Source: Callorhinchus milii
Taxonomy: Eukaryota
DNA length: 64,000 bases
Direction of reading: 5' to 3'
NCBI RefSeq assembly: GCF_018977255.1
Contig: NW_024704742.1
Location: 91,266,001 to 91,330,000 of the forward strand
The notes beneath the pieces are model-generated. The model was given only the letters and a program-made list of their open reading frames with translations, did not search any database and was not told the origin of the DNA. Every line of letters begins with the position of its first letter. The first letter of the stretch is position 1. The position numbers and the translations under genes are program-made. This document shows, piece by piece, positions 13,288 through 58,293 of this stretch.

Positions 13288-13608
13288 GTGGAATCCTGTA
13301 GCTCAGTGGTTAGAGCACTCGCCTCAGCGAGAGACCTGGGTTCGATTCCCGGCAGAGCAAAATCTTGGGCAAGTTTCCTTACTCCTCACGCCTGATAATA
13401 ATCCCTCAAGATAAAAAAGAACAATAATAATTTGGTCACTTCAATCCATGACTGTTTTTGGGACATTGTTGTGCGCAATTGGCTGCCGTGTTTCGCCCAC
13501 AAAAATGCAGTTAATTCACTTTACAGGATATTCTGTGAAGCGCTTTGAGACGTCCAGAAGACGTGAAATGCGCTATATCAAATTCAAGGATTATTATTAT
13601 TATTATTA
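13288..13608 (+). mobile_element. Full-length SINE of a related subfamily, lying between CR1 3' fragments (~12880-13130, ~13690-13870)
   Basis: Same tRNA-like head, Deu-like core and (ATT)n tail. Confidence 0.88.
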
Positions 13609-15001: not shown

Positions 15002-15176
15002 CTTTCAGTTCCTCATGTATTTTGTTCACCTCATCTATTCTGTCTTGTGATCTGCACTGAATAATATTAGCTTCCTTCCTGGCCACAGCTAGCTCATACT
15101 CCAGATTCTGTCTCAGGGCTTCTCCTTTCTCCAGCTGAGCTCGTAACTTTGCAACCTTGCTTTCAAATTTTGATCT
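15002..15176 (-). CDS. CCDC171: CCDC171 coding exon (175 nt, phase 0/1): [58 protein letters not shown]
   Basis: ttccacag|AGA acceptor and AAAG|gtacaa donor. Matches the recalled human [28 protein letters not shown]. Confidence 0.93.
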
Positions 15177-21800: not shown

Positions 21801-22982
21801 ATCCCAGCATCTAATTATCAAAACAAATCCTTTTTATACTGTTTCCCTTCAAATATTTATCCAATTTCCTTTTAAATGTTTTATGGTCTTAACCTCAATA
21901 GCTATTTGTGGCAACGCATTCCATGTTCTGACAACCATCTCATGATAACGTTTCTTCCAACTTCCACCTTTAACTATTTTAGTGACAATTCTGTCCTAAT
22001 GCTCCATAGATAGTTACTGATTCATCAACCAGCAGAATTAATCTCTCATGATTTAGCCTATAAAGACCCTTCATAATTTTGAATCTCAATTAGAATAACA
22101 TTTTCTGTTCAAGTTCCTTTTTTCAAGCCTATTTTAACTATTACCACTTGTTCCTCTGAATGAAAACCCTTTCTGTACCTTTTCCATGACTTTGATGTCC
22201 TTTCTATCCAGTGGCTGGGTTGTAAAAAAAATTGTCATTTAGGTAGGGCATTAGGATAGAGTCAAGGCCTCCCTTCAATCTGCACAGGTGCTCACTCCTT
22301 CTCATGGAACCAGAGAGGAACTTCTGCGGAACCACCAACTGTCCTTCAAACCCCACATACATACTCTCACTCACTCTACTTTCCCTTACCTTTGCAACAT
22401 TGCCCACCTCTGCCACTACCTCTATCCCCCTCTCCAAGGCTGCCAAGACCTTCACTCATGCATTAATCATCTCCAGGCTCAACTAGTCCATTGCCCTTCT
22501 CACTGGCCTCCTCAGTTCCTCCCTATACAAGTTGCAGGCCATCCAGAACGCTGCAGCCCTTGTTCTCTTCTACACCAGCCTTCACAAGCCCGTCACGTCC
22601 CTTCCTTACCCGGGTCCACTGCCCACTCCATGCCAGCTACTTTGCCCCCTGCTATCTGAAACACCATCTCAAAACCTTCTCCACCTTGCCCCTTTCATCT
22701 CAGACTTTAAAGCCAATTTTAAAACCCATCTCTTGGACTATGCTTTCAACCATTATTCCCCTCCCCTCCCTGTTCAGTCTCTTAGTCAGTTGTGTGAAGT
22801 GTTCTGAGATGTCTTTCTAACATACAAGTTTCTACATAAATATTAATTGTTGTTGTTGTATAGTTCCTTTCTTTTTCCTCACAAAATGTACGTCACATTC
22901 CGCAACATTAAACTGCATCTGCCTATTTTTCTAAATGATCAGTTCTCACAGTATCTTGCATTCTTATATTAAATTACATTAC

Positions 22983-23146
22983 CTCTCAATTTCATTTTCA
23001 CAATGGTTTTGTTTTTCCTCAAGAGCCAAACTTCGGGTCCTTCCATTTCTTATTCCCGTGCTTGTTCTTAACTGAGCTGACTGAGTGTTGTCCCCTGTCC
23101 CATCTAGGATACACTCCACACGTCCTTCGAAACCTGTAGCGGACAT
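22983..23146 (-). CDS. CCDC171: CCDC171 first coding exon (exon 22983-23174, ATG at 23146): MSATGFEGRVECILDGTGDNTQSAQLRTSTGIRNGRTRSLALEEKQNHCENEIE(R)
   Basis: Strong polypyrimidine acceptor ttttgtttttgtag|A at 23174 and an in-frame upstream stop. 54 open codons plus AG end at GAG AG|gtaatg, whose phase 2 joins the 18865 exon. The N-terminal sequence itself is not recognisably conserved. Confidence 0.72.
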
Positions 23147-23929
23147 ACCTAAGCTTCCCTACATTCTCCAAAATCTACAAAAACAAAACAAAAAAATGAA
23201 AGTTTACATTGAAAAACTATGAGCAACATTATTTACATATTTAAAAAGCTTTGTGCATTCACAAAAATATCCACATAAATATTATATCCAGAATACCAAC
23301 TGAAACACCAAATCGGGCAGAGCATAGGGATGTTCAAAGGCAAAGAAGACTAGTCTGCTAGTTCTCTGGATGCTAAATAAATTGCTGGTCAGCCACCCCA
23401 TAAGTCTGGTCCAGATCAGCTAGAATTATTTCAAGCCACTTGTGAACTGCAGAATGTGGAATTGTGTGGTTCTGCTCATTAAAATCAATTTCAAACCTAA
23501 GAAGAAAGAACCTGCATTCAATGGAACCCCATTGTAATGTTCTTGTTATATTGCAGGTTTGCTTAATGTGTGATTGGGGCGTGGGTCCAGATATTTATTT
23601 TCCAAAAAATACAAAATACATCCAGAAAGCTGGCAGCCTTACTTCAAAACGTTGAAATGACATCTGCAGCAACCTGATGTCCCAGACATTCACCATTGTT
23701 TAGCACAGAAGTCAGCCAGCTTTCTACACTTGTGTGCAGTGAATGCAAAGCGCTGTCAATCATGACCTGTTATAACACTGGTTGGTATGGATCATAATTG
23801 CCATATTATAATGGGACCCCACTGTATTTTTACTACTTTATCATGTTAAAATGTTCCAAAGCACTTCACAGTGTCGTGCCTAATTGTTTTTGGCACCAAG
23901 TGCCTACACAGAAACCCATCTCCATGTTT

Positions 23930-26900
23930 AAGTGTATGCTTATACTCACTTACTGTGAGTATATATATAATTATATGAAGTGTGTGCTTATACTTACTCT
24001 TACTGTGTGTATATGTGTATATATAATTGTATATAGTGTAGTGTTTATACTCACTCTCAGTGTATATATAATTGTATATAGTGTAGTGTTTATACTCACT
24101 CTCAATGTATATATATAATTGTATGTAGTGTATGTTTATACTCACTCTCAGTGTATATATATATTTGTATGGAGTGTATGTTTATACTCACTCTCAGTGT
24201 ATATATATATTTGTATATAGTGTATGTTTATACTCACTCTCAGTATATATATATATATAAATTGGATATAGTGTAGTGTTTATACTCACTCTCAGTGTAT
24301 ATATAATTGTATATAGTGTATGGTTATACTTACTCTGTGTATATAGTGTAGGTTTATACTCACTCTCAGTATATATATAGTGTACGTTTATTCTCAATCT
24401 CAGTGTGCATATATAGTGTATATAGTGTATGTTTATACTCACTCTCATTGTACATATAGTGTATATAGTGTAGGTTTATACTCACTCTCAGTGTATATAT
24501 AGTGTACGTGTTTACTCACTCAGTGTATATGTAGTGTATATAATGTATGTTTATGCTCACTCTCAGCATATATAGTGTACATTGTGTGGGTTTATACTCA
24601 CTCTCAGTGTATATATAGTGTACATAGTGTATGTTTATACTCACTCTCAATGTGTGTATATATAGTGTACAGTGTGGGGGTTACACTCACTCTCAGTATA
24701 TATAGTGTGTACACTGTGGGGTTATACTCACTCTCAGTGTGTGTGTGTACTGTGGGGTTATACTCACTCTCAGTGTGTGTACACTGTGGGGTTATACTCA
24801 CTCTCAGTGTGTGTGTACACTGTGGGGGTTATACTCACTCTCAGTGTGTGTACACTGTGGGGGTTATACTCACTCTCAGTGTGTGTGTACACTGTGGGGT
24901 TATACTCACTCTCAGTGTGTGTGTACTGTGGGGGTTATACTCACTCTCAGTGTGTGTACACTGTGGGGGTTATACTCACTCTCAGTGTGTGTGTACACTG
25001 TGGGGGTTATACTCACTCTCAGTGTGTGTGTACACTGTGGGGGTTATACTCACTCTCAGTGTGTGTGTACACTGTGGGGGTTATACTCACTCTCAGTGTG
25101 TGTACACTGTGGGGGTTATACTCACTCTCAGTGTGTGTGTACACTGTGGGGGTTATACTCACTCTCAGTGTATATATAGTGTGTACACTGTGGGGTTATA
25201 CTCACTCTCAGTGTGTGTGTACTGTGGGGTTATACTCACTCTCAGTGTGTGTGTACTGTGGGGTTATACTCACTCTCAGTGTGTGTACACTGTGGGGTTA
25301 TACTCACTCTCAGTGTGTGTGTACACTGTGGGGTTATACTCACTCTCAGTGTGTGTACACTGTGGGGTTATACTCACTCTCAGTGTGTGTGTACTGTGGG
25401 GGTTATACTCACTCTCAGTGTGTGTGTACACTGTGGGGTTATACTCACTCTCAGTGTGTGTGTACACTGTGGGGGTTATACTCACTCTCAGTGTGTGTGT
25501 ACACTGTGGGGGTTATACTCACTCTCAGTGTGTGTACACTGTGGGGTTATACTCACTCTCAGTGTGTGTGTACACTGTGGGGGTTATACTCACTCTCAGT
25601 GTATATATATATATATAAATTGGATATAGTGTAGTGTTTATACTCACTCTCAGTGTATATATAATTGTATATAGTGTATGGTTATACTTACTCTGTGTAT
25701 ATAGTGTAGGTTTATACTCACTCTCAGTATATATATAGTGTACGTTTATTCTCAATCTCAGTGTGCATATATAGTGTATATAGTGTATGTTTATACTCAC
25801 TCTCATTGTACATATAGTGTATATAGTGTAGGTTTATACTCACTCTCAGTGTATATATAGTGTACGTGTTTACTCACTCAGTGTATATGTAGTGTATATA
25901 ATGTATGTTTATGCTCACTCTCAGCATATATAGTGTACATTGTGTGGGTTTATACTCACTCTCAGTGTATATATAGTGTACATAGTGTATGTTTATACTC
26001 ACTCTCAATGTGTGTATATATAGTGTACAGTGTGGGGGTTACACTCACTCTCAGTATATATAGTGTGTACACTGTGGGGTTATACTCACTCTCAGTGTGT
26101 GTGTGTACTGTGGGGGTTATACTCACTCTCAGTGTGTGTACACTGTGGGGTTATACTCACTCTCAGTGTGTGTGTACACTGTGGGGTTATACTCACTCTC
26201 AGTGTGTGTACACTGTGGGGGTTATACTCACTCTCAGTGTGTGTGTACACTGTGGGGGTTATACTCACTCTCAGTGTGTGTGTACTGTGGGTTATACTCA
26301 CTCTCAGTGTGTGTGTACTGTGGGGTTATACTCACTCTCAGTGTGTGTACACTGTGGGGGTTATACTCACTCTCAGTGTGTGTGTACACTGTGGGGTTAT
26401 ACTCACTCTCAGTGTGTGTGTACTGTGGGGGTTATACTCACTCTCAGTGTGTGTGTACACTGTGGGGTTATACTCACTCTCAGTGTGTGTGTACACTGTG
26501 GGGTTATACTCACTCTCAGTGTGTGTGTACACTGTGGGGGTTATACTCACTCTCAGTGTGTGTGTACACTGTGGGGGTTATACTCACTCTCAGTGTGTGT
26601 ACACTGTGGGGGTTATACTCACTCTCAGTGTGTGTGTACACTGTGGGGGTTATACTCACTCTCAGTGTATATATAGTGTGTACACTGTGGGGTTATACTC
26701 ACTCTCAGTGTGTGTGTACTGTGGGGTTATACTCACTCTCAGTGTGTGTGTACTGTGGGGTTATACTCACTCTCAGTGTGTGTACACTGTGGGGTTATAC
26801 TCACTCTCAGTGTGTGTACACTGTGGGGTTATACTCACTCTCAGTGTGTGTGTACACTGTGGGGTTATACTCACTCTCAGTGTGTGTACACTGTGGGGTT

Positions 26901-29900
26901 ATACTCACTCTCAGTGTGTGTGTACACTGTGGGGTTATACTCACTCTCAGTGTGTGTACACTGTGGGGTTATACTCACTCTCAGTGTGTGTGTACTGTGG
27001 GGTCATACTCACTCTCAGTGTGTGTGTACACTGTGGGGGTTATACTCACTCTCAGTGTGTGTGTACTGTGGGGTTATACTCACTCTCAGTGTGTGTACAC
27101 TGTGGGGTTATACTCACTCTCAGTGTGTGTACACTGTGGGGGTTATACTCACTCTCAGTGTGTGTGTACTGTGGGGTTATACTCACTCTCAGTGTGTGTA
27201 CACTGTGGGGTTATACTCACTCTCAGTGTGTGTACACTGTGGGGTTATACTCACTCTCAGTGTGTGTACACTGTGGGGTTATACTCACTCTCAGTGTGTG
27301 TACACTGTGGGGTTATACTCACTCTCAGTGTGTGTGTACTGTGGGGTTATACTCACTCTCAGTGTGTGTGTACTGTGGGGTTATACTCACTCTCAGTGTG
27401 TGTGTAACTGTGGGGTTATACTCACTCTCAGTGTGTGTGTACACTGTGGGGTTATACTCACTCTCAGTGTGTGTGTACACTGTGGGGTTATACTCACTCT
27501 CAGTGTGTGTGTACACTGTGGGGTTATACTCACTCTCAGTGTGTGTGTACTGTGGGGTTATACTCACTCTCAGTGTGTGTGTACACTGTGGGGTTATACT
27601 CACTCTCAGTGTGTGTGTACTGTGGGGTTATACTCACTCTCAGTGTGTGTACACTGTGGGGTTATACTCACTCTCAGTGTGTGTGTACACTGTGGGGTTA
27701 TACTCACTCTCAGTGTGTGTGTACACTGTGGGGGTTATACTCACTCTCAGTGTGTGTACACTGTGGGGTTATACTCACTCTCAGTGTGTGTGTACACTGT
27801 GGGGTTATACTCACTCTCAGTGTATATATAGTGTGTACACTGTGGGGTTATACTCACTCTCAGTGTGTGTGTACTGTGGGGTTATACTCACTCTCAGTGT
27901 GTGTACACTGTGGGGTTATACTCACTCTCAGTGTGTGTACACTGTGGGGTTATACTCACTCTCAGTGTGTGTGTACTGTGGGGTTATACTCACACTCAGT
28001 GTGTGTACACTGTGGGGTTATACTCACTCTCAGTGTGTGTGTACTGTGGGGGTTATACTCACTCTCAGTGTGTGTACACTGTGGGGTTATACTCACTCTC
28101 AGTGTGTGTGTACTGTGGGGGTTATACTCACTCTCAGTGTGTGTGTACACTGTGGGGTTATACTCACTCTCAGTGTGTGTACACTGTGGGTTATACTCAC
28201 TCTCAGTGTGTGTACACTGTGGGGTTATACTCACTCTCAGTGTGTGTACACTGTGGGGTTATACTCACTCTCAGTGTGTGTGTACTGTGGGGTTATACTC
28301 ACTCTCAGTGTGTGTGTACTGTGGGGTTATACTCACTCTCAGTGTGTGTACACTGTGGGGTTATACTCACTCTCAGTGTGTGTGTACACTGTGGGGGTTA
28401 TACTCACTCTCAGTGTGTGTACACTGTGGGGTTATACTCACTCTCAGTGTGTGTGTACACTGTGGGGTTATACTCACTCTCAGTGTGTGTGTACTGTGGG
28501 GTTATACTCACTCTCAGTGTGTGTACACTGTGGGGGTTATACTCACTCTCAGTGTGTGTGTACACTGTGGGGGTTATACTCACTCTCAGTGTGTGTGTAC
28601 ACTGTGGGGTTATACTCACTCTCAGTGTGTGTGTACTGTGGGGTTATACTCACTCTCAGTGTGTGTACACTGTGGGGTTATACTCACTCTCAGTGTGTGT
28701 GTACTGTGGGGTTATACTCACTCTCAGTGTGTGTTACACTGTGGGGTTATACTCACTCTCAGTGTGTGTGTACTGTGGGGTTATACTCACTCTCAGTGTG
28801 TGTGTACACTGTGGGGTTATACTCACTCTCAGTGTGTGTGTACTGTGGGGTTATACTCACTCTCAGTGTGTGTGTACACTGTGGGGGTTATACTCACTCT
28901 CAGTGTGTGTGTACTGTGGGGTTATACTCACTCTCAGTGTGTGTACACTGTGGGGTTATACTCACTCTCAGTGTGTGTACACTGTGGGGTTATACTCACT
29001 CTCAGTGTGTGTGTACACTGTGGGGTTATACTCACTCTCAGTGTGTGTACACTGTGGGGTTATACTCACTCTCAGTGTGTGTGTACACTGTGGGGTTATA
29101 CTCACTCTCAGTGTGTGTACACTGTGGGGTTATACTCACTCTCAGTGTGTGTGTACTGTGGGGTCATACTCACTCTCAGTGTGTGTGTACACTGTGGGGG
29201 TTATACTCACTCTCAGTGTGTGTGTACTGTGGGGTTATACTCACTCTCAGTGTGTGTACACTGTGGGGTTATACTCACTCTCAGTGTGTGTACACTGTGG
29301 GGTTATACTCACTCTCAGTGTGTGTGTACTGTGGGGTTATACTCACTCTCAGTGTGTGTACACTGTGGGGGTTATACTCACTCTCAGTGTGTGTACACTG
29401 TGGGGTTATACTCACTCTCAGTGTGTGTACACTGTGGGGTTATACTCACTCTCAGTGTGTGTACACTGTGGGGTTATACTCACTCTCAGTGTGTGTGTAC
29501 TGTGGGGTTATACTCACTCTCAGTGTGTGTGTACTGTGGGGTTATACTCACTCTCAGTGTGTGTGTAACTGTGGGGTTATACTCACTCTCAGTGTGTGTG
29601 TACACTGTGGGGTTATACTCACTCTCAGTGTGTGTGTACACTGTGGGGTTATACTCACTCTCAGTGTGTGTGTACACTGTGGGGTTATACTCACTCTCAG
29701 TGTGTGTGTACTGTGGGGTTATACTCACTCTCAGTGTGTGTGTACACTGTGGGGTTATACTCACTCTCAGTGTGTGTGTACTGTGGGGTTATACTCACTC
29801 TCAGTGTGTGTACACTGTGGGGTTATACTCACTCTCAGTGTGTGTACACTGTGGGGTTATACTCACTCTCAGTGTGTGTGTACCTGTGGGGGTTATACTC

Positions 29901-32900
29901 ACTCTCAGTGTGTGTGTACACTGTGGGGTTATACTCACTCTCAGTGTGTGTTACACTGTGGGGTTATACTCACTCTCAGTGTTTGTGTGTACACTGTGGG
30001 GTTATACTCACTCTCAGTGGTGTGTACTGTGGGGTTATACTCACTCTCAGTGTGTGTGTACTGTGGGTTATACTCACTCTCAGTGTGTGTACACTGTGGG
30101 GTTATACTCACTCTCAGTGTGTGTGTACTGTGGGGTTATACTCACTCTCAGTGTGTGTACACTGTGGGGTTATACTCACTCTCAGTGTGTGTGTACTGTG
30201 GGGTTATACTCACTCTCAGTGTGTGTACACTGTGGGGTTATACTCACTCTCAGTGTGTGTGTACTGTGGGGTTATACTCACTCTCAGTGTGTGTGTACAC
30301 TGTGGGGTTATACTCACTCTCAGTGTGTGTACACTGTGGGGTTATACTCACTCTCAGTGTGTGTACACTGTGGGGTTATACTCACTCTCAGTGTGTGTAC
30401 ACTGTGGGGTTATACTCACTCTCAGTGTGTGTGTACTGTGGGGTTATACTCACTCTCAGTGTGTGTGTACTGTGGGGTTATACTCACTCTCAGTGTGTGT
30501 ACACTGTGGGGTTATACTCACTCTCAGTGTGTTGTCACTGTGGGGGTTATACTCACTCTCAGTGTGTGTACACTGTGGGGTTATACTCACTCTCAGTGTG
30601 TGTGTACACTGTGGGGTTATACTCACTCTCAGTGTGTGTGTACTGTGGGGTTATACTCACTCTCAGTGTGTGTACACTGTGGGGGTTATACTCACTCTCA
30701 GTGTGTGTGTACACTGTGGGGGTTATACTCACTCTCAGTGTGTGTGTACACTGTGGGGTTATACTCACTCTCAGTGTGTGTGTACTGTGGGGTTATACTC
30801 ACTCTCAGTGTGTGTACACTGTGGGGTTATACTCACTCTCAGTGTGTGTGTACTGTGGGGGTTATACTCACTCTCAGTGTGTGTACACTGTGGGGTTATA
30901 CTCACTCTCAGTGTGTGTGTACTGTGGGGGTATACCACTCTCAGTGTGTGTGTACACTGTGGGGTTATACTCACTCTCAGTGTGTGTGTACTGTGGGGTT
31001 ATACTCACTCTCAGTGTGTGTGTACACTGTGGGGGTTATACTCACTCTCAGTGTGTGTGTACTGTGGGGTTATACTCACTCTCAGTGTGTGTACACTGTG
31101 GGGTTATACTCACTCTCAGTGTGTGTACACTGTGGGGTTATACTCACTCTCAGTGTGTGTGTACACTGTGGGGTTATACTCACTCTCAGTGTGTGTACAC
31201 TGTGGGGTTATACTCACTCTCAGTGTGTGTGTACACTGTGGGGTTATACTCACTCTCAGTGTGTGTACACTGTGGGGTTATACTCACTCTCAGTGTGTGT
31301 GTTCTGTGGGGTTATACTCACTCTCAGTGTGTGTGTACTGTGGGGTTATACTCACTCTCAGTGTGTGTACACTGTGGGGTTATACTCACTCTCAGTGTGT
31401 GTGTACTGTGGGGTTATACTCACTCTCAGTGTGTGTACACTGTGGGGTTATACTCACTCTCAGTGTGTGTGTACTGTGGGGTTATACTCACTCTCAGTGT
31501 GTGTGTACTGTGGGGTTATACTCACTCTCAGTGTGTGTGTACTGTGGGGGTTATACTCACTCTCAGTGTGTGTGTACTGTGGGGTTATACTCACTCTCAG
31601 TGTGTGTGTACACTGTTGGGGGTTATACTCACTCTCAGTGTGTGTGTACTGTGGGGTTATACTCACTCTCAGTGTGTGTACACTGTGGGGTTATACTCAC
31701 TCTCAGTGTGTGTACACTGTGGGGTTATACTCACTCTCAGTGTGTGTGTACACTGTGGGGGTTATACTCACTCTCAGTGTGTGTACACTGTGGGTTATAC
31801 TCACTCTCAGTGTGTGTGTACACTGTGGGGTTATACTCACTCTCAGTGTGTGTGTACACTGTGGGGTTATACTCACTCTCAGTGTGTGTGTACTGTGGGG
31901 TTATACTCACTCTCAGTGTGTGTGTACTGTGGGGTTATACTCACTCTCAGTGTGTGTACACTGTGGGGTTATACTCACTCTCAGTGTGTGTACACTGTGG
32001 GGTTATACTCACTCTCAGTGTGTGTGTACTGTGGGGGTATACTCACTCTCAGTGTGTGTACACTGTGGGGTTATACTCACTCTCAGTGTGTGTGTACTGT
32101 GGGGTTATACTCACTCTCAGTGTGTGTGTACACTGTGGGGTTATACTCACTCTCAGTGTGTGTACACTGTGGGGTTATACTCACTCTCAGTGTGTGTACA
32201 CTGTGGGGTTATACTCACTCTCAGTGTGTGTACACTGTGGGGTTATACTCACTCTCAGTGTGTGTACACTGTGGGGTTATACTCACTCTCAGTGTGTGTG
32301 TACTGTGGGGTTATACTCACTCTCAGTGTGTGTGTACTGTGGGGTTATACTCACTCTCAGTGTGTGTACACTGTGGGGTTATACTCACTCTCAGTGTGTG
32401 TGTACACTGTGGGGGTTATACTCACTCTCAGTGTGTGTACACTGTGGGGTTATACTCACTCTCAGTGTGTGTACACTGTGGGGGTTATACTCACTCTCAG
32501 TGTGTGTACACTGTGGGGGTTATACTCACTCTCAGTGTGTGTACACTGTGGGGTTATACTCACTCTCAGTGTGTGTACACTGTGGGGTTATACTCACTCT
32601 CAGTGTGTGTGTACTGTGGGGTTATACTCACTCTCAGTGTGTGTACACTGTGGGGTTATACTCACTCTCAGTGTGTGTACACTGTGGGGTTATACTCACT
32701 CTCAGTGTGTGTACACTGTGGGGTTATACTCACTCTCAGTGTGTGTACACTGTGGGGTTATACTCACTCTCAGTGTGTGTACACTGTGGGGTTATACTCA
32801 CTCTCAGTGTGTGTGTACTGTGGGGTTATACTCACTCTCAGTGTGTGTGTACTGTGGGGTTATACTCACTCTCAGTGTGTGTGTACACTGTGGGGTTATA

Positions 32901-34430
32901 CTCACTCTCAGTGTGTGTGTACTGTGGGGTTATACTCACTCTCAGTGTGTGTGTATTGTGGGGGTTATACTCACTCTCAGTGTGTGTGTACTGTGGGGGT
33001 TATACTCACTCTCAGTGTGTGTGTACACTGTGGGGGTTATACTCACTCTCAGTGTGTGTGTACACTGTGGGGGTTATACTCACTCTCAGTGTGTGTGTAC
33101 ACTGTGGGGTTATACTCACTCTCAGTGTGTGTGTACACTGTGGGGTTATACTCACTCTCCGTGTGTGTGTACTGTGGGGTTATACTCTCTCTCAGTGTGT
33201 GTGTACTGTGGGGTTATACTCACTCTCAGTGTGTGTGTACTGTGGGGTTATACTCACTCTCAGTGTGTGTACACTGTGGGGTTATACTCACTCTCAGTGT
33301 GTGTACACTGTGGGGTTATACTCACTCTCAGTGTGTGTGTACACTGTGGGGTTATACTCACTCTCAGTGTATTATAGTGTGTACACTGTGGGGTTATACT
33401 CACTCTCAGTGTGGTGTACTGTGGGGTTATACTCACTCTCAGTGTGTGTACACTGTGGGGTTATACTCACTCTCAGTGTGTGTACTGTGGGGTTATACTC
33501 ACTCTCAGTGTGTGTGTACACTGTGGGGTTATACTCACTCTCAGTGTGTGTACACTGTGGGGTTATACTCACTCTCAGTGTGTGTACACTGTGGGGTTAT
33601 ACTCACTCTCAGTGTGTGTACACTGTGGGGTTATACTCACTCTCAGTGTGTGTACACTGTGGGGTTATACTCACTCTCAGTGTGTGTGTACTGTGGGGTT
33701 ATACTCACTCTCAGTGTGTGTACACTGTGGGGGTTATACTCACTCTCAGTGTGTGTGTACTGTGGGGTTATACTCACTCTCAGTGTGTGTACACTGTGGG
33801 GTTATACTCACTCTCAGTGTGTGTGTACACTGTGGGGGTTATACTCACTCTCAGTGTGTGTACACTGTGGGGGTTATACTCACTCTCAGTGTGTGTGTAC
33901 TGTGGGGGTTATACTCACTCTCAGTGTGTGTGTACTGTGGGGTTATACTCACTCTCAGTGTGTGTACACTGTGGGGTTATACTCACTCTCAGTGTGTGTG
34001 TACACTGTGGGGTTATACTCACTCTCAGTGTGTGTGTACTGTGGGGGTTATACTCACTCTCAGTGTGTGTACACTGTGGGGGTTATACTCACTCTCAGTG
34101 TGTGTACACTGTGGGGGTTATACTCACTCTCAGTGTGTGTACACTGTGGGGTTATACTCACTCTCAGTGTGTGTACACTGTGGGGGTTATACTCACTCTC
34201 AGTGTGTGTGTACACTGTGGGGTTATACTCACTCTCAGTGTGTGTGTACTGTGGGGTTATACTCACTCTCAGTGTGTGTGTACACTGTGGGGTTATACTC
34301 ACTCTCAGTGTGTGTGTACTGTGGGGGTTATACTCACTCTCTGTGTGTGTGTATTGTGGGGTTATACTCACTCTCAGTGTGTGTACACTGTGGGGTTATA
34401 CTCACTCTGTGTGTGTGTACTGTGGGGGTT
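23930..34430. repeat. ~10.5 kb minisatellite, unit ~GTTATACTCACTCTCAGTGTGTGT(GT)AC(AC)TGTGGG(G), 34-37 bp, roughly 270 GT-rich copies plus AT-rich degenerate copies
   Basis: Direct reading; copy number is estimated from length. AT-rich variants at 23930-24700 and 25600-26070 share the core TATACTCACTCTCAGTGT. Confidence 0.98.
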
Positions 34431-34745
34431 CCTCACGCGCTCTCAGTTCTCCGCTTCAGTTTAAAATGTAACCGACGCTCCTCTTCCGCCAAACAAACGG
34501 TCATTTCCGCTCTCGCGGAGCAAACCGCCGCTTCCGATTGGTGAGCGCGTCGCTCCTCTGTGACGCCATCCGCCGCCTGTGGCGGGGAGGGGGAGGGGGA
34601 CGCGAGCCGGTCGCCAGGGGTAACCGGCGGCGGCTGCTGCGCACGCGCCGTGTCCTGGGCCAAGTGATTGACAGTGGCTCCGCACGCGCCAAAGACCCGC
34701 TCCACACAATGGGGAGGGCGGGAAGCTGCAGCTCTGCTCACTGTT
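34430..34745. promoter_or_regulatory. CpG-island promoter of CCDC171
   Basis: GC- and CpG-dense patch in AT-rich DNA. Contains CCAAT (minus, 34537-34541), ETS-like CTTCCG/TTTCCG sites, CRE-like TGACGCCA (34561), an RFX X-box match (34610-34624), GCGCACGCGC motifs and a GGGCGG box near 34716. Confidence 0.8.
34437..34520 (-). other. CCDC171: Probable non-coding exon 1 of CCDC171 (5' end approximate)
   Basis: Lies in the only CpG island upstream of the coding exons and ends at a gcgc|GTGAGg donor (GT at 34436-34435). The TSS cannot be determined from sequence. Confidence 0.55.
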
Positions 34746-51544: not shown

Positions 51545-51866
51545 AATAATAATAATAATCCTTGCATTTGATATAGCGCTTTTCACGTCGGCAGGACGTC
51601 CCAAAGCGCTTCACAGAACACACTGTAAACTGAATTGACTGTATATTTGTGGGCGAACGCGGCAGCCAATTGCGCACAGCAATGTCCCACAAACAGTCGT
51701 AGATTGAAAATGACCAATTTATTATTGTTTTTGGTTTTGGAGGGATTATTATTAGGCTCTGTGTGGAGTAAGGAAACTTGCCCAAGGTTTCGCCCTCTGC
51801 CTGGAATTGAACTCAGGTCTCTCACTTGCAAAGCGAGTGCTCTAACCACTGAGCTACAGGACTCCA
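51545..51866 (-). mobile_element. Young full-length SINE (same subfamily as 11478-11808)
   Basis: Near-identical reverse complement; the ORF track gives nearly identical spurious peptides. Confidence 0.92.
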
Positions 51867-56357: not shown

Positions 56358-57640
56358 CTAAAAAAAAATTGACATTTGCAATTATAGTTTTACAAATTCC
56401 ATCAAAAGCAGCAGCTTTACATAATGCTCTCAAAATGCTTAAAAATTCAAAAGGATCATTTTTTTTGTAAGAAAGTTTGTACTTTACCCACTGGGTAATT
56501 TACAACTGAAACGGGTTACCAGGGAGGGTGGTTGAAGTAAAGACACTGAACTCATTTAAAGAACAGCTTGATTCTGTGATGGGTGGATGGTGGGATAGGT
56601 GTTCTGGAAGGATTAAATCAGATGGGCCGAAGGGCCTTTTCATCCAAACTAGTCTTGTGATCTTGTGAAATGTTTTAAACATTAAAATTGCAGAGCAATT
56701 ACCGAGAACACTTCAATTACAAAAGTTGAAAGTTTTACAAAACAACCCCATTAGAAAACATCTTGCTGGAGCGAGAGTTCACTTATAACCCTGGTTTCTT
56801 GTGCATTATTGAAAATGCAGTACACTTCTGGTTTCTGGTGTGGACCAACTGGCTCCCTGCATTTTCATAATAATATTAATAATAATCACTGCATTTGATA
56901 TAATGCCTTATTATCTTTGAGACGTCCCAATGCGCTTCATAGAATATATTGTAAGTATACTGTACGTTGTACAAATTATATCAAAAGCAGCAGCTTTACA
57001 TGAAAGCTCAAAATGATTAAAAATTCAAAAGGGTCATTTGTTTTGTAAGAAAGTTTTACAAATTGACTATATTTTAGGGGCGAAACACAAACAGTAGTGG
57101 ATTGAGTTATCAAATTATTTTATCTTTTTTAAAAATTTTTTTTTTGAAGGGTTTATAAACCCGAGAAAAGTAATCTGCCAATCAACTGACAAGCGGGTTC
57201 CTACTTACTGCTAGGTAAACAGAGGTATGTGGAGTAAGGAAACTTGTCTATGACTTCGCCTTGCCTGGGAATCAAACCCAGGCCCACTCACTTGCGAGGC
57301 GAGTGCTCTAACCAATACGCTACAGGACTCTCCAATATAGGCAGGAAGCTGGTCGCTCACACATGCATTTCTTGTGCTAGAAACGATCACAAGGATTATC
57401 GCGGTTGACCAGCCAGATTCATGGACAGAAAGCAAGCTGATCCATGCAGAAACTGGGAGTGATGTAGGTGGCAGTGGAACTGATAGCCATTTTTTTGCAG
57501 ATGTTATATCTTTATGGATACGAAAAACACATTATAATGGGAGGGGGTTCCCTATAGTACTTGAACAAGAATTTTTACCTCCGAATACAATATTAATGAA
57601 AATTATTTATACTTACTATTATACTTATATTATTCCATAC

Positions 57641-57961: not shown

Positions 57962-58293
57962 AAATAATAATAATAATAATAATAATCCTTGCATTTGATA
58001 TAGCGCTTTTCACGTCGGGAGGACGTCCAAAAGCGCTTCACAGAACACACTGTAAAGTGAATTGATATTATATTTGTGGGCGAACGCGGCAGCCAATTGC
58101 GCACAGCAGTGTCCCACAAACAGTCGTAGATTGAAAATGACCAATTTATTATTGTTTTTGGTTTTGGAGGGATTATTATTAGGCTCTGTGTGGAGTAAGG
58201 AAACTTGCCCAAGGTTTCGCCCTCTGCCTGGAATTGAACTCAGGTCTCTCGCTTGCAAAGCAAGTGCTCTAACCACTGAGCTACAGGACTCCA
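57962..58293 (-). mobile_element. Young full-length SINE abutting the tail of an older SINE (58294-58627)
   Basis: Near-identical to the other young copies; an older-type copy follows immediately. Confidence 0.9.

What the first reader, a model, noticed from the sequence alone, without database searches (positions are those of the whole stretch)
23930..34450. 10-kb minisatellite that looks like an amplified copy of the CCDC171 first splice donor
Seen: on the transcribed (minus) strand the putative exon-1/intron-1 junction reads ACTGAGAgcgc|GTGAGgAACCCCCACAG. The repeat unit that follows with no spacer reads ACTGAGA|GTGAGTATAACCCCACAG, so the junction is effectively the first variant unit. Known: U1 snRNA pairs with |GURAGUAU. 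Each unit's GTGAGTAT fits intron positions +1..+8 better than the presumed real donor (GTGAGGAA), though its exonic positions (AGA) are weak. Units also carry CA repeats (hnRNP L-type sites) and CCCCACAG, and the consensus has no ATG on this strand. Inference: intron 1 presents roughly 270 competing donors. This could give a ladder of 5' UTR lengths, a U1 sink or telescripting platform, or a copy-number-dependent expression rheostat.
Basis: partly seen in the sequence, partly recalled or inferred. Interest (0 to 1): 0.72.

Follow-up and report, generated by a model that had tools for sequence, protein, structure and literature searches.

The report
Splice-donor minisatellite in CCDC171 intron
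A 10.5-kb tandem repeat at the start of an elephant-shark gene repeats a splice signal almost 300 times, and RNA assemblies hint that the gene splices from two or more of the copies, which makes it a very large example of a repeat type already known from human genes.

Summary
The array is real: 295 units (mostly 34-37 bp) at 23921-34436, with 281 GTGAGTAT on the sense strand and none elsewhere in the window. It lies between a CpG island and the ATG-bearing exon of CCDC171 (100% identical to the Callorhinchus milii protein). RNA-like contigs confirm the 23174 acceptor in 4 of 4 runs. The letters upstream of it were not shown. In 3 of 4 runs (two studies) the contig stops exactly 3 letters upstream. 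So the working junction probably lies inside the array, with at least two donors or two alleles of one; this is indirect. The layout matches human F7, CBS, IFI6 and ABCA7 VNTRs and amphioxus 'mirages', where only the first one to three donors are used. Nothing here supports a deep 5'UTR ladder, a U1 sink or a rheostat. Verdict: an unusually large new member of a known kind, probably near-neutral because exon 1 is non-coding.

The parts
34380..34680 (.). CpG island, likely CCDC171 promoter; on the minus strand a GC-box-like motif (34587), a CRE-like motif (34568) and CCAAT (34541)
   Evidence: 200-bp windows starting 34381-34601 have GC 0.57-0.71 and CpG o/e 0.86-1.21; motif positions. Promoter role inferred; TSS not measured
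34406..34515 (-). Most likely non-coding exon 1, ending at the first consensus unit donor (CAGA|GTGAGTAT, GT at 34405); includes the eroded unit 1
   Evidence: Inference. Contig X1 runs 110 unbranched letters upstream of the acceptor, letters not shown; placed on this donor it would start at 34515
34433..34504 (-). 23-codon upstream ORF in putative exon 1, whose stop lies at the 34436 site
   Evidence: Translation; use not shown
34406..34447 (-).
   Evidence: Sequence; U1 duplex -5.2 kcal/mol; every simulated path set that combines it with another path breaks at 0 letters, not 3
26100..34405 (-). Homogeneous part of the minisatellite, 34-37 bp units, GC about 0.47; each unit carries AGA|GTGAGTAT
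27140..31450 (-). Higher-order duplication: two diverged ~62-unit (2.15 kb) blocks, with a partial third copy below
   Evidence: Unit identity at lag 62 is 0.36, against a best-lag maximum of 0.28 in 300 shuffles; aligned blocks are the same at 46 of 65 columns, with 13 differences (3 unit-type swaps) and 6 gaps
25601..26115 (-). 515-bp exact copy of the start of the AT-rich block at 24243-24757 (1358 bp apart): recent duplication or merged haplotypes
   Evidence: 515-bp exact repeat; 450 of 450 identical over the AT-rich core; flanking units differ
23921..24731 (-). AT-rich degenerate tail of the array, units 29-57 bp, donor core retained; includes AGA|GTAAGTAT sites at 24333 and 23997
   Evidence: last bin: similarity to consensus 0.38, GC 0.275
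22983..23174 (-). CCDC171 exon 2: acceptor at 23174, in-frame ATG-TAG start-stop at 23164-23159, main ATG at 23146
   Evidence: tblastn 100% to residues 1-55 of P0002; contigs of 4 of 4 runs end their match at 23174 and 3 of 4 join exon 3; translation

Best explanation
A locally grown minisatellite whose unit spans the first exon-intron junction of CCDC171, so that each copy reiterates a 5' splice site. Shown: the array, its donor core, the gene and the acceptor. Inferred: (1) transcription starts in the CpG island and runs through the array; (2) the weak first site GCGC|GTGAGGAA is mostly passed over, and exon 1 ends at the first consensus unit (34405), with one or more further units used as minor donors and the rest silent, as in 5'-proximal donor choice; (3) exon 1 is non-coding and the units carry no ATG, so using a later unit only adds ~34 nt to the 5'UTR, and selection neither limits the array nor preserves any single donor; (4) the array grew by slippage and unequal exchange, giving homogeneous GC-richer units beside the island, block duplications in the middle and degenerate AT-rich units at the far end.
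For: Array anatomy. 286 of 293 GT[AG]AG sites in the array have AGA before the GT: 282 GAGA, 3 CAGA, 1 AAGA. Contigs of X2, X6 and X7 (two studies) have exactly 3 letters upstream of 23174, and the match stops at 23174 although 23175 is an unmasked G. Of 6 single paths, 15 pairs and 10 printed triples simulated, the value 3 arose for 34405+34371, 34405+34337, those three together, and 34781+intron. The same model predicts the 28 exon-3 letters at the other end of X7's contig when an intron-2 path joins. Chance pairs of upstream donors with this signature: 29 of 18915 upstream of the array and 0 of 21 within 1 kb. Precedent: IFI6 and CBS use the first donor plus two more, F7 only the first (PMC1557585); ABCA7 retains one unit (PMC5954066).
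Against: X1's contig is unbranched for 110 letters and fits any single donor not ending in G, 34436 included. The pair 34781 (TTAG|GTACG) plus unspliced intron also gives 3; it is disfavoured only because its last letter is G and no run covers the intron. Two alleles of one donor (CAGA/TGAGA) would give the same break. X2's contig also ends at an unexplained place (22989). The CAGA partner could be 25691 or 24333 rather than 34405. In F7 constructs, stronger downstream sites did not displace the most upstream functional site, which would favour 34436 if it is functional. Neutrality is inferred, not tested.
Confidence: 0.62

Rival explanations
1. One donor only; the rest of the array is silent intron. 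Either the 34436 site is used and the 3-letter contig ends have another cause (donor 34781 plus unspliced intron), or one repeat donor is used and differs between alleles.
For: X1 is unbranched. 34781+intron simulates to 3. F7, LMNB2 and PDGF use only the first donor. Earlier AI notes on similar arrays report first-donor use (unchecked).
Against: The intron path needs a G at -1, yet all four matches stop at 23174 and depth over 23199-24030 is 0 in 4 of 4 runs. No plausible partner shares CGC|. The allelic version needs heterozygous animals in both studies.
Confidence: 0.27
2. A functional device: many donors in real competition, a long 5'UTR ladder, U1 loading that protects the transcript, or expression set by copy number.
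For: 281 strong U1 sites in sense orientation directly behind the promoter: 28 GT[AG]AG per kb against 1.8 per kb elsewhere, and no AATAAA/ATTAAA in the homogeneous 8.3 kb against 1.6 per kb. The donor core survives in the degenerate units. ABCA7 VNTR length correlates with expression and exon skipping. At least two donors seem to be used.
Against: Motif density and absence of PAS hexamers follow trivially from any repeat of this unit. The variable part of the unit is a CA/TA microsatellite that mutates faster anyway. In ABCA7, unit retention did not change with VNTR size. A global U1 sink fails on numbers (recalled U1 abundance). No conservation data.
Confidence: 0.08
3. The array is real but its length is partly inflated by assembly (merged haplotypes or duplicated reads). 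Not exclusive of the best explanation.
For: A 515-bp exact internal repeat returns the array's AT-rich end 1358 bp upstream. Singleton units with 1-base indels cluster at 29900-31650, as in thin long-read consensus.
Against: The 62-unit blocks share rare variants but differ by unit swaps and whole-unit gaps, as real diverged duplications do. Removing the 1.36-kb copy would still leave about 9 kb.
Confidence: 0.25
4. Driver of growth: meiotic recombination aimed at the promoter CpG island expands and homogenises the array from the island side and shifts it toward GC. Not exclusive of the best explanation.
For: Polarity: similarity 0.91-0.93 and GC 0.47 over the 8 kb next to the island, against 0.38 and 0.275 at the far end. 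[quoted passage not shown] Unchecked notes report other long arrays and GC shifts beside CpG islands in this genome.
Against: No recombination map. Homogenised interiors with divergent edges are typical of tandem repeats generally (PMC3087553). The direction of the AT/GC change is not rooted.
Confidence: 0.3

Closest known systems
Human F7 intron 7 37-bp VNTR (Borensztajn et al. 2006, PMC1557585; abstract, Discussion whole, Introduction passages read)
   Same: The first unit spans the exon-intron junction and the donor is reiterated in every unit.
   Different: 5-9 copies against 295; coding exon; only the first site is used. Here the first site is eroded and seems to be bypassed.
Human IFI6 (6-16) intron 2 and CBS intron 13 minisatellites (known only from the Introduction of PMC1557585; original papers not read)
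   Same: The authentic donor plus the next two pseudo-sites are used, the pattern that best fits the contig ends here.
   Different: 25 pseudo-sites and 15-20 units. Here about 290, in a 5'UTR intron where unit retention has no frame effect.
Human ABCA7 intron 18 25-bp VNTR (De Roeck et al. 2018, PMC5954066; passages read)
   Same: Starts at the donor GT; alleles up to 9.7 kb; retention of one unit is observed.
   Different: Internal coding exon, retention causes a frameshift, length effects measured. Here no length or expression data.
Amphioxus 'mirages' (Adh3, globins; PMC3087553, passages read)
   Same: Minisatellite duplications of exon-intron boundaries with homogenised interior and divergent edges.
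   Different: 3-6 units in the globin BflGb6 case; no effect on splicing seen.

Membership tests
Junction-spanning minisatellite (F7/CBS/IFI6/ABCA7 type; 'mirage') | Head-to-tail units of 10-100 bp | tested here: met
   295 units, mostly 34-37 bp
Junction-spanning minisatellite (F7/CBS/IFI6/ABCA7 type; 'mirage') | Donor sequence reiterated in the units, in sense orientation | tested here: met
   291 of 295 units begin GT[AG]AG on the CCDC171 strand
Junction-spanning minisatellite (F7/CBS/IFI6/ABCA7 type; 'mirage') | A unit spans a real exon-intron boundary | tested here: inconclusive
   Contig ends fit AGA| unit donors in 3 of 4 runs, but the exon 1 letters were not shown
Junction-spanning minisatellite (F7/CBS/IFI6/ABCA7 type; 'mirage') | Only the most upstream one to three donors are used | tested here: inconclusive
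   At least two AGA| paths inferred; which units cannot be told
Junction-spanning minisatellite (F7/CBS/IFI6/ABCA7 type; 'mirage') | Copy number varies between individuals (VNTR) | not testable with these tools
   Only contigs of short-read runs were listed
Recursive-splicing (AG|GT ratchet) array | Acceptor AG directly followed by a donor GT | tested here: not met
   In the unit list, AGGT occurs in 1 singleton unit of 295; the units have a C-run, not a U-rich tract, before CAG
Dispersed satellite or mobile-element repeat inserted at the junction | Copies elsewhere in the genome | tested here: inconclusive
   0 GTGAGTAT outside the array in the window; no look-alike in earlier notes; no protein hit for a translated stretch; whole genome not held
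U1 sink / telescripting element | U1 bound along the nascent array, with a measurable effect on cleavage or expression | not testable with these tools
   Only motif densities computed
Structured RNA family | Rfam match or unusually stable fold | tested here: not met
   No Rfam hit in the array; fold of the junction region z = -1.57

The most novel reading that the evidence does not exclude
The array acts as a renewable pool of splice donors. The original first donor decayed at the CpG-island edge, the junction slid into the repeat, and exon 1 now ends at many units, giving a ladder of 5'UTRs in ~34-nt steps. The ladder depends on the allele's unit order and length and sets the distance from the exon-1 uORF to the main AUG, and so the protein output.
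Probability: 0.12. Interest if true: 0.58.

Novelty: new member of a known kind. Interest (0 to 1): 0.3.

Why it matters
If near-neutral, it shows how far a donor-reiterating repeat can grow when the exon is non-coding. It also offers a natural test of 5'-proximal donor choice with about 290 near-identical sites and a weak first site; one long-read RNA experiment would settle which are used. If the junction has moved into the array, it is a case of junction sliding by tandem duplication. It does not point to a new mechanism. This locus was not found in print by my searches (0 papers; two searches listed none on it).

Tried and rejected
Own-genome search: no genome held, so a genome-wide copy count was impossible. 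No listed holder is on record as RNA; the runs are RNA by guess, though 3 of 4 laid contigs join exon 2 to exon 3. Shark CCDC171 models with an extra ~41-residue N-terminus (P0005-P0008, P0015) gave no credible tblastn match near putative exon 1, so the orthologous first exon could not be placed. A translated repeat stretch found no protein relative among proteins of 61-195 residues. Rfam found only 5 tRNA-like hits, none in the array. The junction fold is not unusual. The long open frames across the array, e.g. 2815 aa on +, come from the unit lacking stops in some frames; rejected as genes. Micro-exons (CAG..16-18 nt..GT within a unit) were considered and thought unlikely: no U-rich tract, and only 18 nt from the previous donor. 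MaxEntScan was not available; U1-duplex energy is a crude stand-in that ranks the repeat donor (-8.4) above all six confirmed coding donors (-5.6 to -8.0) and the 34436 site (-5.2) below them. A search for papers linking minisatellite polarity, hotspots and CpG islands gave 1 listing, not read. PMC10078293 passages gave no case of reiterated donors. Supplements of the papers were not opened.
Full report
Observation. Tandem Repeats Finder reports a 34-bp array at 24705-34427 (277.5 copies, 91% matches) and degenerate periods down to 23958. Splitting the minus strand at the donor-like core gives 295 units between 34436 and 23921; six variants make up 233 of them. GTGAGTAT occurs 281 times, all in the array and none in the rest of the window. 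The consensus has no ATG; 15 ATGs lie in variant units or at the 3' edge.

Gene. A 58-residue exon at 15003-15176 is 100% identical to Callorhinchus milii CCDC171. The full protein maps to six exons on the minus strand, with residues 1-55 at 23146-22982. The ATG thus lies 28 nt inside the exon that starts at 23174, and any upstream exon is non-coding in this model. A CpG island (GC up to 0.71, CpG o/e about 1.1) abuts the 5' end of the array, with CCAAT at 34541 and GC-box- and CRE-like motifs on the minus strand. That exon 1 lies here is inferred.

Donor strength. The unit donor AGA|GTGAGTAT pairs with the U1 5' end at -8.4 kcal/mol; 41 of 3053 background GT sites do as well. The presumed donor CGC|GTGAGGAA gives -5.2 (329 of 3053). 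The six coding donors give -5.6 to -8.0. This is a crude score, and the U1 motif was recalled.

RNA evidence. Fifteen runs were listed, 13 holding exon 2, nine of those RNA by guess. I laid 4 of the 9 (X1, X2, X6, X7; two studies) on 22830-24030. Each gave one contig, matching exon 2 up to 23174, with no depth in the intron; 3 of 4 carry the start of exon 3 as a loose end, so they are spliced RNA. Upstream of the acceptor, X1's contig runs on for 110 letters that were not shown (row dropped beside a masked T-tract), while those of X2, X6 and X7 hold exactly 3 more letters. In a 31-mer graph a contig starts where paths converge, so this suggests two upstream partners that share their last three letters and differ at the fourth. 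The match stops at 23174 although 23175 is an unmasked G, so the last letter is probably not G.

Simulation. The value 3 arose for 34405+34371, 34405+34337 and those three together; 34371+34337 gave 4; every combination of 34436 with another path gave 0. One other pair gave 3: donor 34781 plus unspliced intron, which needs G at -1 and intron cover. As a check, the same model predicts 28 exon-3 letters at the other end if an intron-2 path joins, and X7 shows 28. Of 293 GT[AG]AG sites in the array, 282 follow GAGA, 3 CAGA (34405, 25691, 24333) and 1 AAGA; outside it, 29 of 18915 upstream donor pairs and 0 of 21 within 1 kb would leave this signature. Against this reading: no letters were seen; X1 fits any single non-G donor, 34436 included; two alleles of one donor would look the same; and X2's other end (22989) is unexplained.

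Architecture. The 8 kb next to the island are homogeneous (similarity to consensus 0.91-0.93, GC 0.47); the far end is degenerate and AT-rich (0.38, GC 0.275) but keeps the donor core. A 62-unit period stands out (0.36 against a shuffle maximum of 0.28). Its two full copies are the same at 46 of 65 columns and differ by unit swaps and whole-unit gaps, which fits real unequal exchange. A 515-bp exact duplicate 1358 bp apart may be a recent duplication or merged haplotypes, so the length is uncertain by roughly 1.4 kb.

Mechanism. Most likely (0.62), the junction unit was amplified locally; the first site is weak and mostly bypassed; exon 1 ends at the first consensus unit, with minor use of further units; the rest are silent. 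Since exon 1 is non-coding and the units lack ATG, an extra unit costs only 34 nt of 5'UTR, which would explain both the size of the array and the decay of the first site. These steps are inferred. Growth may be driven by promoter-directed recombination (0.3): C. milii PRDM9 is reported as partial, slowly evolving and undetected in RNA-seq (PMC5519329; abstract and passages), but no map exists. A functional rheostat or U1 device gets 0.08: the high donor density and lack of AATAAA/ATTAAA follow from any repeat of this unit, and a global U1 sink fails on recalled U1 abundance.

Comparison. Minisatellites whose first unit spans an exon-intron junction are described for human F7, IFI6, CBS, LMNB2 and PDGF; the first donor, or the first three, are used (PMC1557585; abstract, Discussion, Introduction passages). 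The ABCA7 VNTR starts at the donor GT, has an allele of 9711 bp and shows one-unit retention that did not change with length (PMC5954066; passages). Amphioxus 'mirages' are similar (PMC3087553; passages). Earlier AI notes list six such arrays in other genomes (unchecked, used as leads only). This locus works like those and meets the two sequence criteria; the junction criterion is inconclusive and polymorphism is untested. It differs in size (295 units), in lying in a 5'UTR intron, and in the apparent bypass of the first site, which is not what the F7 scanning results would predict if that site is functional. Searches for the locus in print found nothing.

Verdict. Real; a new member of a known kind; interest 0.30. 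The most novel reading not excluded, an allele-dependent ladder from a junction that slid into the array, has probability 0.12.

Noticed in passing
window:50387-60760 (-): Exons of a C9orf72-like gene on the same strand, ending about 16 kb upstream of the CCDC171 island. The piece at 58707-59018 hits Pfam PF15019 at E 6.4e-06, 26.5 bits, just under the cut-off of 27; two other pieces had no hit and were assigned by recalled likeness. Read-through into CCDC171 exon 2 was not tested.
   Followed up: partly
window:23159-23164 (-): An in-frame ATG-TAG start-stop element 12 nt before the CCDC171 start codon.
   Followed up: no
P0005-P0008, P0015: Several shark CCDC171 models have an extra ~41-residue N-terminus from an upstream in-frame ATG; no match in this window.
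   Followed up: partly
window:15265-15339 (-): UniRef model A0A4W3I5V2 (P0001) starts in this intronic stretch, lacks exons 2-3 and reads into intron 5, so it looks mis-predicted.
   Followed up: no
window:23930-34436 (+): On the antisense strand each unit ends in TATACTCACTCTCAG, an acceptor-like motif, followed by TG repeats; no antisense transcript was looked for.
   Followed up: no
window:11485-11547, 13296-13355, 51797-51859, 57265-57322, 58224-58286: Five tRNA-like Rfam hits inside a recurring interspersed repeat, probably tRNA-derived SINE heads.
   Followed up: no
window:18865: X7's contig ends 28 letters into exon 3, implying a second path into the exon-3 acceptor that shares only the final AG: retained intron 2 or another upstream exon.
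   Followed up: partly
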